A stretch of DNA of 64,000 nt from Trypanosoma brucei (GCA_000002445.1 CP000067.1:1120001-1184000); one strand, 5' to 3'. Positions 4,074 to 17,266 are shown, numbered from the stretch's first letter. Made by a program: numbers and translations. The notes: a model not told the origin generated them from the sequence alone.

Positions 4074-5478
4074 CTTTTGTCTTATTGGACGGAAACCTAT
4101 GTCGTTGTTACTGTTTTTTTCTTTTACCCTTGCCTGCCCACACTAGAACTTCTAATACTACCGGTATTTTCCCTTTCCTTTTGTTTCCTTTCTCGCTTGC
4201 AGTACTCCCCTTTGTCTGAAGAGCCCTCTTCTGTTGTTCAATGTAAGAATATCTAAAACAGAAAACCTCTAACAACAAAGTACGAAGGAATCCTTCCCTC
4301 TTTCTGTGTTTTCCGTCCTCTTTCCCCTTCTTTCGCTCGCTTACTACCCTACACTCTGCGTCCTCTACCTCTCTTCTACTTTACAATATATCAACCGGCT
4401 ACCTACCAATCCTAATATGCCACTTCCCCTGCTACCCTAGTACCTACTCAGTGTTGCTAATAATGAAGTAACTAATAATAATATGTAAATATCCCCCTAA
4501 CAACTACAACCCTCTAACAAACCAACACAACCGTCAGGCAGTTCCTTGACACCGTTAGCTCTAGGTACACACTCTACTTTCCACTGACAAAGAGTGAGAA
4601 ACTAGTGCCAACGCTAAAAGAGATGAAAAAGAAACTGCCTTGACTGTGCGTCTCCGCTGCGTACAGCTACACACAAATGTAATCAACCAAAAGAAAAAAA
4701 TGCGCTTCTCTACCTGCTAGTAAACAAGGTCCTAACAACCTACGCCGCCCACTATCACCTTAACTCACCCTAACCCTACCCGGCAATGCCCCTACAAAAA
4801 AAAAGTTCCCCTGATAGTTTCCGTTTCTCGAGAACAATATGACGTAAGAATGAACAAACAAACCTTAATTCACAACCCTTAATGCCTATTGTTTTTGCAC
4901 CACCAAGAAATGGGGGACATAAGTAGGGTAAAAAAGACAAAGACATCAAAAGTTAAGAAAAAACAACAACAACAACAGAATGGAAAATCAGAAGGTAAAG
5001 CAAAACAAACAACGGCCCTAAAAGTTGCATGACCACAAACGAACAAAAAGAAAAGACACAATTAAAACCTGCACGTATTCCTTCTGGAGCTCAATGGCAC
5101 ATGTAATCACCCCGGCAAGCAACAAACCGCGCAGAGGATTTGGCACGATACCAAGAAATGGTACAGGTACAATAAAATTAGATTTAGGGCTCACACACTT
5201 TAGTAAGCACAAACAAGCACCACGTCTTGACTACAGTTCGCGAACAATTTCGTCAAGTACGTACAAACCAACAATCACCATAGTTCTATCTTCCTCCCGC
5301 ATATTTACATTTGATGAATTTTTCTACGAAGTTTCGCCACCGTAATATGCAGAACGCCTAACTCATTCACACATATTGGAGACGTACATAATCAATGGTC
5401 TTTCTGTGCGCACATATGCGTTGAGGTTATGCTCTACACAACAAGGGTTGGCACAAAGGTCTCCCTATGTGGATAAAA

Positions 5479-6471
5479 TCATTGTCCTGCAGCGGCAGAC
5501 TTCGATCTCACACAAACACGCTGGGGAGGAATGGAGGGGCCAGTTTCTGTTAATGTGTCATCTTTCTGCTGTCGACTATGCCGAGTCTCAGTTCGAGATG
5601 CCACCCCAACATTACCTTTCGCTACCTTCGAGAAACCCGTAAATGCACCGAAGGCTGATGAGCCCCGCAACCTTGGATATGGCATTCCACTTAGCCGACG
5701 CGAGGCACCCCACAAAGATGTGGTAGTGTTACATTTCGTGGAGTGAGTAGCATGTGACCGGCAGTTTTTGATATCTTTTAACACCTCATGGGATGCCTTT
5801 ACGAAGCCACTGAAGGACGGCTTTTGCCGCACAACCTCACCATCCATCTTACTGCGCTCACTCGGGTTCTCTGTGAGTGCACCAACAGCTGTACGTTCCT
5901 CCAATTGTACTGTATTGGGAAGTGGCGGAGGCTCAACGGGGTACACATGTGTTGCCGTCTGCTGCACATCGTCACCTTTGATCTTACATTCAGGAGACAC
6001 ACCCTTCAGGTTGGTTTCCACAGCTTGTTTTCCATTGCTTACAGCCGGTTTCACTTTTCGGTCAGTGTGTTTCCTGCATACTTGTGCTGTGCGTTCCGTG
6101 GCAGACGGAAGTACATCCTCACACACATGACCTTTGCTACAGCTCACATCACTCTTTTGTTCGCACGGAGGTGTAGGTGGTTCACTGCAAAGGACTCGCG
6201 TCTGACTTCTTTCCCGCCCTTTACAGTAGTATTCCTCATGGGCCGCTAACCTTGCCATCTCTACTTCCATACCACAGCACGAGCATTCTACCAATTGTTG
6301 CCCACAGCGGCTGATGTGTTCACTACAGCCAAAACGCCTACAATAGGGGCACTTGCGAAGATTTTTGGGCAGTAAATCAGAACTTTTCCGCTTCGTAGGG
6401 TCACGCACAAGAGCACCATTGTACTTCCAGGGTGCACCACTCGTTACAGTTGTCTTGCTCTCCGTTTCCAT
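5479..6471 (-). CDS. Hypothetical protein with tandem C2HC (TRAF-type-like) zinc-finger motifs, array copy 1
   Basis: 330-aa ORF. N-terminal KCPYCRRFGCSEHISRCGQQLVECSCCGMEVEMARLAAHEEYYC contains C-x2-C-x7-H-x3-C and C-x2-C-x11-H-x4-C spacings reminiscent of TRAF-type zinc fingers. The rest is Ser/Thr/Pro-rich. A 330-codon open frame is unlikely by chance at this GC content. Same strand as flanking genes. Confidence 0.5.
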   Translation of the reverse strand: METESKTTVTSGAPWKYNGALVRDPTKRKSSDLLPKNLRKCPYCRRFGCSEHISRCGQQLVECSCCGMEVEMARLAAHEEYYCKGRERSQTRVLCSEPPTPPCEQKSDVSCSKGHVCEDVLPSATERTAQVCRKHTDRKVKPAVSNGKQAVETNLKGVSPECKIKGDDVQQTATHVYPVEPPPLPNTVQLEERTAVGALTENPSERSKMDGEVVRQKPSFSGFVKASHEVLKDIKNCRSHATHSTKCNTTTSLWGASRRLSGMPYPRLRGSSAFGAFTGFSKVAKGNVGVASRTETRHSRQQKDDTLTETGPSIPPQRVCVRSKSAAAGQ

Positions 6472-15576: not shown

Positions 15577-16108
15577 GACCTACACCTAAAACAAGACAGC
15601 ATAAATAATTACAGTATTTGGGAAAGGAAGGAGAGCCATGTGTGAACCAGTCGGAAAATGTATCAACGGCAACATGACCTGCACAGAGTTACTGAAGCCA
15701 CGGTGTGAGCAACAGCTAGCATTTAAGGAGGGGGAAATATAACACCTATGGGAATAAGTAACGCTTACACAATGTGAAAGGAGGGTTGCAGGAGACTACA
15801 GCCAGTGCAAATGGACACAAGAGTCCTTGCTGCCGCTTTTCATAACACAATCCAACACACAATGCAATGACTCGAGAAACCCCAACACTTCACCAGCACC
15901 TGCGGAAGCTACAGGCGTGTGTGCATGTGTGTGCACAATTTGGGGAACTCGGGCCTGACACAGACAGGATGGCAGGTAATGATAGAGTGGGAGGATTACC
16001 GCATTCCAGCAACTCTACAATGGAATAAACTTGATTCGATACCTTGCATCAACAACTCAAAATCAATTTAAAAAAATATATGTGTTCACGTTCGAATTCG
16101 TGTTCGCC

Positions 16109-17266
16109 CTACAAACAACTCATTTCCCGGAGAGGTCCCTGGCTGCCCGTTAGCGAGCGGTGCGAGGTGTTCTTCTCATTGTTGAACCGCCGCCTCAACT
16201 CGTTGTAGTCACTCTCATTTACATGGTGTACCATAATGGAGCTTTTTGTCACGGCTCCCAACGTTGTACCGGCGTGCACATCGTGAAACGAGCACTTAGG
16301 CTCGTGAACGTAGGTTATATTCGTATGATACATGGCCCTCCGCAATGTAATCCCTACCATTGCGTCTTCAACCATGACACAGAGAGACTGGAACTCTTCG
16401 TCACGTATTGCTGTGTAGGGGACGTGGATTATTGTTCGAAGGGGCTTATACGAGACAAAACGTTCCGCGACGTCACGTCCTAGAGTATAGCACGCGCCAT
16501 AAGCATAATTAAATCGGAAACCTTGCACGCTGAGCACGTCTATCGTACCCCAGTATAGCCCACGGCGAGGTAGGTTGCGTAAGTCTGCTAGATACTGAGG
16601 AACGCGTAGGAACATATCGTCATCTGCCTTCGCAATATACGGGGCATACGGAAATAAGCACACTGACATGTCAAACCACAAGAATGTCTTGCGGCTCATG
16701 CCAATCTCCGCATCAATGCCCCACTTCCCACCTTGACCCACACGCTTCCTACCTGACGGCCGGCCCTCGTTCATTGGCAACGTTAAGATGTCACTCCATT
16801 GAGTAGCTTCCTCCACCAGTGCCTTGGTATAAGTGTAGCCATTTTCGGGATGTCGCGCAAGGATGTACAGCGGCAGCATTTCACCAGAGAAACCGTTCGC
16901 ACGTACTGCAACGCCGGCGTATGTCCAGCATGCTGCCCGTTGCAGGTCGCGGCGGCGCCGTCTCACGTCCAGGTCTATGGAGGGGATGCCGATTACCACC
17001 AAGTACCGTCGCTCCTCCCATGCGCTAACGACGGGAGCTGGGACGTAAGTTAGCGACTGTTTCACCCACAGAGGGTGCTCTGAGAGATGTTGACCTTTAT
17101 TGGCTATAGCTGTTTTCGGAACGTTGATTTCCCTTTTGCCGGCTCTCTCTGAGTTGTTGGAGAGCGTTGTCAAGAGAGATGTGACAACGCATATGGTAAA
17201 GAGCAATACCGTCAAAGAAATGCTGCTGCGCAGTATTCTTCCGCGACTGTTAAATTGCCTACACAT
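16109..17266 (-). CDS. Glycosyltransferase, array-edge copy with an unrelated N-terminal cytoplasmic/anchor/stem region
   Basis: 385 aa. From PLWVKQSLTY onward it is ~99% identical to copies 1 and 2, including ADDDMFL. The first ~63 aa (MCRQFNSRGRILRSSISLTVLLFTICVVTSLLTTLSNNSERAGKREINVPKTAIANKGQHLSEH) are unrelated to the MAPALRGN... N-terminus of the other copies, yet still contain a hydrophobic signal-anchor. The DNA junction is at ~17076. Confidence 0.7.
   Translation of the reverse strand: MCRQFNSRGRILRSSISLTVLLFTICVVTSLLTTLSNNSERAGKREINVPKTAIANKGQHLSEHPLWVKQSLTYVPAPVVSAWEERRYLVVIGIPSIDLDVRRRRRDLQRAACWTYAGVAVRANGFSGEMLPLYILARHPENGYTYTKALVEEATQWSDILTLPMNEGRPSGRKRVGQGGKWGIDAEIGMSRKTFLWFDMSVCLFPYAPYIAKADDDMFLRVPQYLADLRNLPRRGLYWGTIDVLSVQGFRFNYAYGACYTLGRDVAERFVSYKPLRTIIHVPYTAIRDEEFQSLCVMVEDAMVGITLRRAMYHTNITYVHEPKCSFHDVHAGTTLGAVTKSSIMVHHVNESDYNELRRRFNNEKNTSHRSLTGSQGPLREMSCL

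What the first reader, a model, noticed from the sequence alone, without database searches (positions are those of the whole stretch)
5108..17076. Co-amplified two-gene tandem array: C2HC zinc-finger ORF plus DXD glycosyltransferase, >99% identical copies
A ~4.55-kb unit carrying two unrelated ORFs is repeated nearly three times with almost no divergence. Only 1-2 amino-acid differences separate copies across 330- and 384-aa proteins. Trypanosomatids raise expression by tandem gene amplification, but a constant zinc-finger plus Golgi-type glycosyltransferase pair amplified as one unit is unusual. It implies either recent duplication or ongoing concerted evolution. The zinc-finger ORF has no obvious family beyond two TRAF-like C2HC motifs, so it may be an uncharacterised lineage-specific gene hitch-hiking in the array.
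Basis: seen in the sequence. Interest (0 to 1): 0.6.

Follow-up and report, generated by a model that had tools for sequence, protein, structure and literature searches.

The report
Known trypanosome glycosyltransferase–zinc-finger tandem array
This is the already annotated three-copy array of a Golgi-type glycosyltransferase and a small zinc-finger gene on Trypanosoma brucei chromosome 4, kept nearly identical by gene conversion; it is real but an ordinary feature of trypanosome genomes.

Summary
The repeat is real. Window 5105-17075 holds 2.6 copies of a 4.55-kb unit at 99.8% identity. The window is T. brucei brucei TREU927 chromosome 4, and all six proteins are exact GenBank entries. By gene order they are Tb927.4.4240-.4290.

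The glycosyltransferase (GT) belongs to the kinetoplastid GT67 (beta3GT-derived) family, probably the three-copy "TbGT4" subfamily. The zinc-finger (ZnF) ORF is a real gene, not a lineage-specific orphan. Orthologues with conserved Cys/His ligands lie at the same position, upstream of the RRM gene, in T. congolense, T. vivax and T. melophagium. Further homologues occur in T. grayi and T. cruzi marinkellei, and a diverged paralogue lies on chromosome 8.

The third GT (385 aa) has an unrelated first 64 residues, so the array encodes two isoforms with one catalytic domain. The third unit also lacks 825 bp, bounded by a 22-nt direct repeat.

The shared region groups by strain, not by isoform, which indicates concerted evolution rather than only recent duplication. 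Multi-gene repeat units are catalogued in T. brucei, so the pairing is not unusual. GT/ZnF alternation also recurs on chromosome 8 and in T. congolense. Interest is low.

The parts
5105..9658 (-). Repeat unit 1 (4554 bp): ZnF1, long spacer, GT1 (384 aa), then the GT 5' flank
   Evidence: Self-BLASTN; three-unit alignment
9659..14209 (-). Repeat unit 2 (4551 bp), 99.8% identical to unit 1
14210..17075 (-). Repeat unit 3 (partial). It lacks the 825-bp spacer segment and ends inside the GT3 coding sequence at codon 64/65
5479..6471 (-). ZnF1, 330 aa (probably Tb927.4.4240): two C2HC fingers at about residues 41-83, followed by a basic, Ser/Thr/Pro-rich tail predicted to be disordered
   Evidence: Exact match to AAZ11015. 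Orthologues. AF2 pLDDT above 90 for the two fingers. Positive codon score
10033..11025 (-). ZnF2, identical protein to ZnF1 (probably Tb927.4.4260)
14584..15576 (-). ZnF3, differs by K232R (probably Tb927.4.4280)
7829..8983 (-). GT1, 384 aa, GT67-family type II glycosyltransferase with N-terminal region type A (probably Tb927.4.4250)
   Evidence: Pfam Galactosyl_T 27.7 bits against cut-off 23. Motifs WG, YIAKADDD and EDAMVG, and a hydrophobic 19-mer at residues 22-40. Exact match to AAZ11016
12383..13537 (-). GT2, 384 aa, differs from GT1 by R11G (probably Tb927.4.4270)
16109..17266 (-). GT3, 385 aa. Same catalytic domain (3 aa differences) but an unrelated first 64 residues (N-terminal region type B). 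Type B is weakly similar to the chromosome 8 paralogue, so it is probably the older type (probably Tb927.4.4290)
8796..9658 (-). Segment B, copy 1 (863 bp): 188 nt encoding the type A N-terminus plus 675 nt of 5' flank. Present in units 1 and 2 only
   Evidence: It is 98.3% identical in other strains' contigs L003 and L006-L009
13350..14209 (-). Segment B, copy 2
6957..7759 (-). Extra spacer in the GT1 3' flank (803 bp). It is bounded by the 22-nt direct repeat TTTGAGTTGTTGATGCAAGGTA at 6935-6956 and 7760-7781, and is absent from unit 3 and from the DAL972 and IVM-t1 assemblies
11511..12313 (-). The same extra spacer in unit 2 (repeats at 11489-11510 and 12314-12335)
16040..16061 (-). Single copy of the 22-nt repeat at the short-spacer junction of unit 3
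1806..4073 (-). Downstream flanking gene, an RRM protein of 755 aa. It anchors the conserved gene order
17686..19536 (-). Upstream flanking gene, 616 aa, with a weak SET-domain match. It anchors the conserved gene order

Best explanation
This is a tandem segmental duplication inside one polycistronic transcription unit of T. brucei TREU927 chromosome 4. A GT67-family Golgi-type glycosyltransferase gene and the zinc-finger gene just downstream of it form a 4.55-kb unit present about three times.

Inferred mechanism: unequal crossing-over between GT copies changes the copy number and necessarily carries along the gene lying between them. Gene conversion or crossing-over then keeps a 3.7-kb tract nearly identical within a genome. 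That tract runs from GT codon 64, through the ZnF gene, to 374 bp past its stop.

The tract stops exactly where the GT N-terminal region (cytoplasmic tail, membrane anchor, stem) meets the rest of the protein. The array therefore encodes one catalytic domain on two different N-terminal regions: two 384-aa copies and one 385-aa copy. The two isoforms also have different 3' flanks because of the 825-bp indel.

The likely functional outcome (inferred) is higher dosage of this bloodstream-enriched GT, with room for isoform-specific Golgi targeting or mRNA regulation.

The ZnF gene is a genuine protein-coding gene conserved across the genus. It is a positional passenger in the amplification. Its function is unknown, but it most plausibly acts as a protein- or nucleic-acid-binding adaptor through two TRAF/C2HC-like fingers.
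For: Identity and annotation:
- All six proteins exactly match TREU927 chromosome 4 entries AAZ11015-11020.
- Neighbouring genes match the published order around Tb927.4.4220-.4380: RRM, weak-SET protein, p24, lipase, V-PPase, GRESAG4 (PMC2212663).

Repeat geometry.

GT family:
- Pfam match above its cut-off.
- GT67 motifs and an N-terminal hydrophobic anchor (motif definitions from PMC9472816).
- 59 Trypanosoma homologues named UDP-Gal/UDP-GlcNAc-dependent GT.
- Published bloodstream-form bias for Tb927.4.4250/.4270/.4290 (PMC5853035) and for the lineage 1 'TbGT4 (three copies)' subfamily (PMC9472816).

Concerted evolution, counted over 1039 nt of the shared GT region:
- TREU927 384-type against TREU927 385-type: 4 differences.
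- TREU927 384-type against the 384-type of another strain (L006): 10 differences.
- L006 384-type against the DAL972 385-type: 2 differences.
- The isoform-specific segment B nevertheless exists in other strains at 98.3% identity, so the duplication is older than the strain split.

ZnF is a real gene:
- A full phmmer search finds homologues in T. congolense, T. vivax, T. grayi, T. cruzi marinkellei and T. melophagium.
- 12 invariant columns, mostly the Cys/His ligands.
- Against T. congolense, pN is 0.26-0.29 and pS 0.93 in the N-terminal 100 codons.
- In T. congolense, T. vivax and T. melophagium it lies directly upstream of the RRM gene. In T. vivax, as in T. brucei, the 616-aa weak-SET gene lies on the other side.
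- The codon-usage score is positive in the annotated frame for both the N- and C-terminal parts. It is negative in all other frames and for the plus-strand ORFs.
- A polypyrimidine tract followed by AG lies just upstream of the ATG.

Recurrent co-duplication: GT and ZnF-like genes also alternate on chromosome 8 (L010) and in T. congolense (L004).
Against: - No expression data could be examined directly for the ZnF genes. Their IDs appear in no searchable main text beyond Jackson 2007.
- The ZnF C-terminal 230 residues are not conserved even with T. congolense (pN 0.57). The African-trypanosome copies have lost fingers 3 and 4 found in other species, which could mean decay.
- The strain-clustering test rests on 10-15 variable sites. 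It compares isoforms across different strains, not both isoforms within one non-TREU927 strain.
- True copy number in other strains is unknown. DAL972 and IVM-t1 show one unit, but both assemblies may have collapsed the repeat (PMC6395869).
- Gene IDs and the 'TbGT4' label are inferred from gene order and copy counts, not read from an annotation file.
Confidence: 0.85

Rival explanations
1. The copies are similar only because the duplication is very recent and specific to TREU927. No gene conversion is involved.
For: Units differ at only about 15 positions. The DAL972 and IVM-t1 assemblies show one unit. Jackson 2007 found that T. b. brucei and T. b. gambiense array copies are usually interspersed.
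Against: The ZnF-to-384-aa-GT junction and segment B occur in five assemblies from other read sets at 98.3% identity. The multi-unit array therefore predates strain divergence, yet the shared region groups by strain. The single-unit assemblies are short-read or reference-guided and may be collapsed.
Confidence: 0.12
2. The GT and ZnF genes are amplified together because they are functionally coupled, and selection acts on the pair. For example, the ZnF protein might regulate the GT or act in the same pathway.
For: GT and ZnF-family genes are adjacent on T. brucei chromosome 4, on chromosome 8, in T. congolense and in T. melophagium. The pair has been co-duplicated at least on chromosome 4, on chromosome 8 and in T. 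congolense.
Against: - In T. vivax the ZnF gene sits between the weak-SET gene and the RRM gene with no GT.
- In T. melophagium and within the chromosome 8 array the GT is amplified alone.
- In T. congolense the GT copies are 98% identical while the interleaved ZnF-like copies are barely alignable, so the two are not co-constrained.
- Adjacency alone explains co-duplication by unequal crossing-over.
- The ZnF protein has no signal peptide or membrane anchor (best 19-residue hydropathy 0.73), so it is not in the Golgi lumen.
Confidence: 0.08
3. The 330-aa ORF is a decaying or non-functional remnant. It is transcribed as part of the polycistron but is not a working gene in T. brucei.
For: - No Pfam hit for the T. 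brucei protein itself.
- Fingers 3 and 4 and the C-terminal motifs of other species are lost.
- The C-terminal two-thirds is unconserved and has low model confidence.
- The only coding difference between copies is non-synonymous.
- Jackson 2007 lists it among the most divergent paralogue pairs (identity 0.145).
Against: - All three copies, and those of DAL972, T. equiperdum and other strains, keep an intact 330-codon ORF with at most 1-2 aa changes.
- The N-terminal domain is under purifying selection against T. congolense.
- The codon score of the C-terminal part is as good as that of the GT.
- The two retained fingers fold with pLDDT above 90.
Confidence: 0.07
4. The array is an assembly artefact of the reference genome.
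For: Near-identical repeats are prone to mis-assembly, and other assemblies show a single unit.
Against: The copies carry private differences and structural differences: the 825-bp indel and segment B against a unique 5' end. The inter-unit junction is independently assembled from other read sets. The literature treats the GT as a three-copy subfamily.
Confidence: 0.02

Closest known systems
[quoted passage not shown]
   Same: - It has the GT67 motifs WG, Y(I/V/F)xKxDDD and ED(A/V/I/L/M)(M/L)x(G/A).
- It has type II topology and a Pfam Galactosyl_T match.
- It is 38% identical to TbGnTI and 58% identical to the chromosome 8 paralogue.
- It is present in three copies on chromosome 4.
   Different: - Donor and acceptor specificity are unknown. 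Duncan and Ferguson 2022 only postulate a beta1-4 Gal-transferase role.
- This work adds that the three copies comprise two N-terminal isoforms with one catalytic domain.
T. brucei tandem gene arrays evolving in concert (Jackson 2007, BMC Evol Biol 7:54), including multi-gene units such as alpha/beta-tubulin and the Tb927.4.3200/.3210 4x repeat
   Same: - The copies are head-to-tail in one polycistronic unit.
- Coding and non-coding sequence are near-identical.
- Copies cluster by genome.
- The terminal copy has divergent flanks.
- Copy number apparently varies among strains.
   Different: - The homogenised tract starts inside a coding sequence, so the isoforms differ only in the N-terminal region.
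- One unit has an 825-bp spacer indel bounded by a 22-nt repeat.
TRAF-type / C2HC zinc-finger arrays (Pfam zf-TRAF PF02176, CEP104_ZnF PF21039, TRAFD1/XAF1; PDB 5lpi, 2d9k, 2yuc, 3hcs)
   Same: - Finger 2 has C-x2-C-x11-H-x4-C spacing.
- The non-African orthologues have tandem fingers about 28 residues apart, four in total.
- There are weak profile and fold matches to these families.
   Different: - No match reaches a Pfam gathering score for the five orthologues scored one by one.
- No Foldseek hit has E below 0.1.
- The T. brucei protein keeps only two fingers.
- It has no RING, TRAF-C or other partner domain.

Membership tests
GT67 / beta3-glycosyltransferase superfamily | Three sequence motifs: WG; Y(I,V,F)xKxDDD (the DXD motif); ED(A/V/I/L/M)(M/L)x(G/A). 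Definitions from PMC9472816. | tested here: met
   WG at residues 181 and 238, YIAKADDD at 209, EDAMVG at 299 of GT1
GT67 / beta3-glycosyltransferase superfamily | Profile match to Pfam Galactosyl_T (PF01762) above its gathering score | tested here: met
   27.7 and 27.8 bits against cut-off 23. Only the 41 residues around the DXD motif align
GT67 / beta3-glycosyltransferase superfamily | Type II membrane topology: a short cytoplasmic tail followed by one N-terminal membrane anchor | tested here: met
   Best hydrophobic 19-mer at residues 22-40 (GT1, mean KD 2.47) and 16-34 (GT3, 2.15). This is a hydropathy calculation only, with no dedicated predictor
GT67 / beta3-glycosyltransferase superfamily | UDP-Gal or UDP-GlcNAc transferase activity and Golgi location | not testable with these tools
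   No biochemical data exist for these genes; 'Functional characterization ... yet to be published' (PMC5853035)
TbGT4 subfamily (GT67 lineage 1) | Three near-identical T. brucei copies, co-orthologous to a two-copy chromosome 8 subfamily, with bloodstream-form bias | tested here: inconclusive
   Three copies here. The chromosome 8 paralogue array is 58% identical. The IDs Tb927.4.4250/.4270/.4290 are reported as bloodstream-biased. The name-to-ID link is inferred from copy counts, not read from a table
Tandem gene array under concerted evolution (Jackson 2007 criteria) | Paralogues within a genome are more alike than positional or isoform counterparts in another genome | tested here: met
   4 differences within TREU927 between isoforms, against 10 for the same isoform between strains, and 2 between different isoforms of non-TREU927 strains. 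The number of sites is small
TRAF-type zinc finger (PF02176) | Profile match at or above the gathering score (27 bits) | tested here: not met
   The T. brucei protein gives no hit. The orthologues reach at most 21.6 bits
TRAF-type zinc finger (PF02176) | C-x2-C-x11-12-H-x3-5-C ligand spacing | tested here: met
   C63-x2-C66-x11-H78-x4-C83, invariant in 9 sequences. The spacing definition is from my own knowledge
CEP104 zinc-finger array (PF21039) | Profile match at or above the gathering score (27.4 bits) | tested here: inconclusive
   The orthologues scored individually reach 17.7-26.3 bits. The best member of the alignment has E = 3.2e-7. The T. brucei protein has no hit. The PDB profile search finds 5lpi at E = 0.0017, and Foldseek gives 5lpi E = 0.7
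UBZ4 ubiquitin-binding zinc finger (zf-WRNIP1_ubi PF18279) | Profile match at or above the gathering score (26.4 bits) | tested here: not met
   The best score is 25.8 bits, in the T. melophagium orthologue only. Finger 1 has a shorter C-x2-C-x7-H-x3-C spacing

The most novel reading that the evidence does not exclude
The array may be maintained to supply one catalytic domain on two different N-terminal (tail, anchor, stem) regions and with two different 3' flanks. The same enzyme would then be sent to different Golgi sub-compartments, or expressed in different life stages. Gene conversion would be blocked exactly at the domain boundary to preserve that difference. T. congolense shows the same pattern: P0003 and P0005 share a catalytic domain but have different N-termini.
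Probability: 0.3. Interest if true: 0.4.

Novelty: already known. Interest (0 to 1): 0.15.

Why it matters
The GT67 lineage 1 enzymes are candidates for the missing beta1-4 galactosyltransferase that builds poly-N-acetyllactosamine on bloodstream-form T. brucei glycoproteins (a postulate of Duncan and Ferguson 2022). Anyone knocking out or tagging these genes needs three facts. There are three copies. They encode two N-terminal isoforms with distinct 3' flanks. A zinc-finger gene is interleaved and would be lost with any whole-array deletion. Beyond that, the locus is a textbook example of concerted evolution in a trypanosome tandem array. It does not open a new question.

Tried and rejected
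1. I first matched the array to Tb927.4.5240-.5300, using Veitch 2010 on 3'UTR-dependent regulation. This was wrong: that is a different, seven-copy GT array (TbGT2) on the same chromosome. Pfam on the neighbouring genes (lipase, V-PPase, GRESAG4) and Jackson 2007 place the window at Tb927.4.42xx-.44xx. Nothing from Veitch 2010 is used for this locus.
2. The word-indexed protein search found no ZnF relative outside Trypanozoon. That result was misleading, because the full HMMER scan found homologues across the genus.
3. Pfam, a PDB profile search and Foldseek on the ZnF domain gave only generic or sub-threshold zinc-finger matches, so no family assignment was made.
4. I looked for the origin of segment B and the 803-bp spacer. 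Neither has any similarity elsewhere in the window or in any fetched locus. The type A N-terminus has no homologue among 79 collected proteins. Whether the 825-bp difference is an insertion or a deletion remains undecided.
5. dN/dS against T. congolense could not be computed because synonymous sites are saturated. Only pN and pS are reported.
6. Supplementary tables of the ribosome-profiling paper (PMC4210626) and of Pereira and Jackson 2018 hold no entry for these gene IDs in the text held.
7. Rfam over the whole window found nothing. TRF found no short-period arrays at score 80 or above.
8. The single unit in the IVM-t1 assembly was considered as long-read proof of copy-number variation. It was rejected because that assembly used only about 7,500 PacBio reads.

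
Full report
**Observation.** Self-BLASTN of the first 25 kb aligns 5105-11510 with 9659-16061 at 99.77% identity over 6406 nt. It also aligns 7757-8795 and 12311-13349 with 16037-17075 at 99.6%. The array is therefore two full units (5105-9658 and 9659-14209; period 4554/4551 bp) plus a partial third (14210-17075). Each unit carries, on the minus strand, a 330-aa ORF and a 384/385-aa ORF. A three-way alignment finds only about 15 variable positions. ZnF1 equals ZnF2, and ZnF3 has K232R. GT1 and GT2 differ by R11G.

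- Homology ends at 17075, inside the third GT ORF at the codon before PLWVKQ. GT3 (385 aa) therefore has a first 64 residues with no similarity to those of GT1/2. The rest differs at three residues.
- Units 1 and 2 contain 825 bp between the GT stop and the ZnF start that unit 3 lacks. This segment is bounded by a perfect 22-nt direct repeat, TTTGAGTTGTTGATGCAAGGTA, at 6935-6956/7760-7781 and 11489-11510/12314-12335. Unit 3 has a single copy at 16040-16061. The difference is either a deletion between the repeats or an insertion; I could not decide which.
- The 863-bp segment B (8796-9658 and 13350-14209) holds the type A N-terminus plus its 5' flank. It occurs only in units 1 and 2.

[quoted passage not shown] All ORFs of 200 aa or more that look genuine lie on the minus strand, so the region is one polycistronic unit.

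I first mis-assigned the array to Tb927.4.5240-.5300. Pfam on the neighbours corrected this: p24/GOLD, a monoglyceride-lipase-like hydrolase, the V-type H+-pyrophosphatase and GRESAG4 adenylate cyclases. Jackson 2007 (PMC2212663) lists Tb927.4.4220 (small GTPase), Tb927.4.4240 ('Zinc finger, C2H2-type', paralogue Tb927.8.8070), Tb927.4.4290 (GT array, paralogue Tb927.8.8090) and Tb927.4.4360 (monoglyceride lipase). Together these place the window at Tb927.4.42xx-.44xx. By order, ZnF1/GT1/ZnF2/GT2/ZnF3/GT3 are Tb927.4.4240/.4250/.4260/.4270/.4280/.4290. This agrees with Pereira and Jackson 2018 naming .4250.4270 and .4290 as GTs. The assignment is an inference from gene order.

**The glycosyltransferase.**
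- Pfam Galactosyl_T matches above its cut-off (27.7 bits against 23).
- The three GT67 motifs defined by Duncan and Ferguson 2022 (PMC9472816) are present: WG, YIAKADDD and EDAMVG.
- Both isoforms have an N-terminal hydrophobic 19-mer consistent with a type II anchor.
- A database search finds 59 homologues. All named ones are from Trypanosoma, almost all named as this GT family. They include a 58%-identical chromosome 8 paralogue and TbGnTI at 38%.
[quoted passage not shown] It reports higher protein levels in bloodstream forms and postulates a beta1-4 Gal-transferase role. Ribosome profiling is reported as bloodstream-biased for these IDs. The activity itself is uncharacterised.
- GT3's N-terminus is weakly similar to the chromosome 8 paralogue's (E = 1.8e-4 in a small database; tblastn aligns from residue 3). 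The type A N-terminus of GT1/2 has no detectable relative. Type B is therefore probably the older form.

**The zinc-finger ORF is a real gene.** It has no Pfam hit, and the word-indexed search found only Trypanozoon copies. An exhaustive phmmer scan found eight more proteins sharing residues about 24-98. They come from T. congolense (196 aa, two copies), T. vivax, T. grayi, T. cruzi marinkellei, T. melophagium and unnamed assemblies.
- The alignment has invariant R39, C41, P42, C44, G48, C63, C66, A77, H78 and C83. These define finger 1 (C-P-Y-C-x7-H-x3-C) and finger 2 (C-x2-C-x11-H-x4-C).
- The non-African species have two further fingers and conserved C-terminal motifs (SPxRHPSKF, APRLATAEL). 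T. brucei and T. congolense have lost these.
- Position is conserved. T. congolense has ZnF then RRM. T. melophagium has a GT array, then ZnF, then RRM. T. vivax has the weak-SET gene, then ZnF, then RRM, with no GT.
- Against T. congolense, the N-terminal 100 codons show pN 0.29 against pS 0.93. The C-terminal part is near random (pN 0.57, pS 0.79).
- A codon-usage log-odds trained on 11 other genes of the window is positive for the annotated frame: 0.087 overall, 0.056 for the N-terminal part and 0.100 for the C-terminal part. The GTs score 0.07-0.08. Every other frame, every intergenic control and the plus-strand 120-, 153- and 107-aa ORFs score negative.
- A 16-nt polypyrimidine tract followed by AG lies within 60 nt upstream of the ATG.
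- An AlphaFold model built on the orthologue alignment gives pLDDT above 90 for the two fingers and below 50 afterwards.

**What kind of zinc finger.** Family assignment stays at the level of resemblance.
- Orthologues give sub-threshold Pfam matches to CEP104_ZnF (up to 26.3 bits against 27.4; best member E = 3.2e-7), zf-TRAF, zf-WRNIP1_ubi and TRAFD1/XAF1.
- A profile search of the PDB finds generic tandem zinc-finger arrays, plus TRAF4, FLN29 and CEP104.
- Foldseek has no hit with E below 0.1. The top matches are RNF125, TRAF6, LNX and CEP104 fingers.
- The protein is basic (52 K+R against 35 D+E), has no hydrophobic anchor, and has a Ser/Thr/Pro-rich tail.

**Concerted evolution rather than mere youth.** DAL972 (L002) and T. 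equiperdum IVM-t1 (L001) assemblies show a single unit with the 385-aa GT and the short spacer. However, five contigs assembled from other read sets (L003, L006-L009) contain the ZnF-to-384-aa-GT junction and segment B at 98.3% identity. The multi-unit array with both isoforms therefore exists in other strains.

Differences over the 1039-nt shared GT region:

| Comparison | Differences |
|---|---|
| TREU927 384-type vs TREU927 385-type | 4 |
| TREU927 384-type vs L006 384-type | 10 |
| L006 384-type vs DAL972 385-type | 2 |

Six sites are fixed between all TREU927 copies and all non-TREU927 copies regardless of isoform. This is the signature of homogenisation within genomes. The site count is small, and both isoforms were not available from one non-TREU927 strain.

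L006-L009 end, and L003 begins, exactly at the 22-nt repeat. This fits an assembly-graph branch, which suggests both spacer forms coexist in those strains. The single-unit assemblies cannot be taken as true copy number, because IVM-t1 used only about 7,500 PacBio reads.

**Is a two-gene unit unusual?** No. [quoted passage not shown] Alpha/beta-tubulin is the classic case. Chromosome 4 also carries a 4x repeat of a hypothetical gene plus an ESAG11-related gene (PMC4288722).

The GT/ZnF alternation also recurs elsewhere:
- On chromosome 8 (L010), three GT copies at a 2509-bp period (99.9% identical) are nested in a larger duplicated segment holding a GT 3' end plus a ZnF-like gene (98.3% identical).
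- In T. congolense (L004) the order is GT, ZnF-like (460 aa), GT, ZnF-like (543 aa), ZnF (196 aa), RRM. The GT copies are 98% identical, but the ZnF-like copies share little beyond an N-terminal M-x-T/S-K-T-x-x-T-S-G-A motif and a degenerate first finger.
- In T. melophagium only the GT is amplified.

The simplest reading is that the ZnF gene is an old neighbour. It is dragged along whenever recombination between GT copies spans it.

**Mechanism.**
- Shown: the repeat structure, its boundaries, gene identities, ZnF conservation and conserved position, and clustering by strain.
- Inferred: unequal crossing-over creates and resizes the array. Gene conversion homogenises a tract bounded at GT codon 64 and at 374 bp past the ZnF stop. 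The outcome is raised GT dosage plus two isoforms that differ in N-terminal region and 3' flank. The ZnF gene is a passenger.
- Not tested: expression, localisation and enzyme activity.

**Verdict.** This is a real but already annotated and published feature of the T. brucei reference genome. It behaves as known trypanosome tandem arrays do. The modest additions here are:
- the exact boundaries of the homogenised tract;
- the two-isoform structure;
- the repeat-bounded 825-bp indel;
- genus-wide homology of the ZnF gene, conservation of its position, and the loss of two fingers in the African trypanosomes T. brucei and T. congolense.

Noticed in passing
window 47289-64000: A second tandem array, of GRESAG4 receptor-type adenylate cyclase genes. 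The period is about 4852 bp, with at least 3.4 copies running off the window end. Copies are only 93.7-96.9% identical, much more diverged than the GT/ZnF array. The second copy is split into two overlapping ORFs (53025-55463 and 55433-56752), which suggests a frameshifted pseudogene.
   Followed up: partly
window 5777, 7887, 8250, 8253, 8953: All five nucleotide differences between copies that fall in coding sequence are non-synonymous: ZnF K232R; GT I/T, H/L, T/S and R/G. The number is too small to be significant.
   Followed up: partly
L010 (T. b. equiperdum chromosome 8 homologue) 4119-16044: The paralogous chromosome 8 locus has three GT copies at a 2509-bp period (99.9% identical, one apparently frameshifted). 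They are nested between two copies (98.3% identical) of a segment holding a GT 3' end plus a ZnF-like gene. Only the downstream ZnF-like copy is called as a gene (636 aa).
   Followed up: partly
L004 (T. congolense IL3000) 1-14720: GT genes alternate with two long, highly diverged ZnF-family paralogues (460 and 543 aa). These keep the N-terminal M-R-T/S-K-T-x-x-T-S-G-A motif and a degenerate first finger. The 196-aa orthologue and the RRM gene follow. The GT copies are 98% identical while the interleaved ZnF-like genes are barely alignable.
   Followed up: partly
L011 (T. vivax) 6477-16242: In T. vivax the ZnF orthologue (509 aa, four fingers) lies directly between the weak-SET gene and the RRM gene. 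There is no GT there, so the GT/ZnF adjacency is not universal in the genus.
   Followed up: yes
L006-L009 3' ends; L003 5' end: Short-read contigs from other strains break exactly at the 22-nt repeat that bounds the 825-bp indel. This suggests both spacer forms coexist in those genomes.
   Followed up: no
window 16109-17266 compared with L002 8310-9467: The type B N-terminal 64 residues of the 385-aa GT differ at 4 positions (94% identity) between TREU927 and DAL972. This region outside the homogenised tract is more diverged than the shared catalytic region (about 99% at nucleotide level).
   Followed up: no
window 1-2000: The first 2 kb of the window has markedly low G+C (0.37, against 0.45-0.54 elsewhere) and no ORF of 200 aa or more. 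It is a long intergenic stretch downstream of the RRM gene.
   Followed up: no
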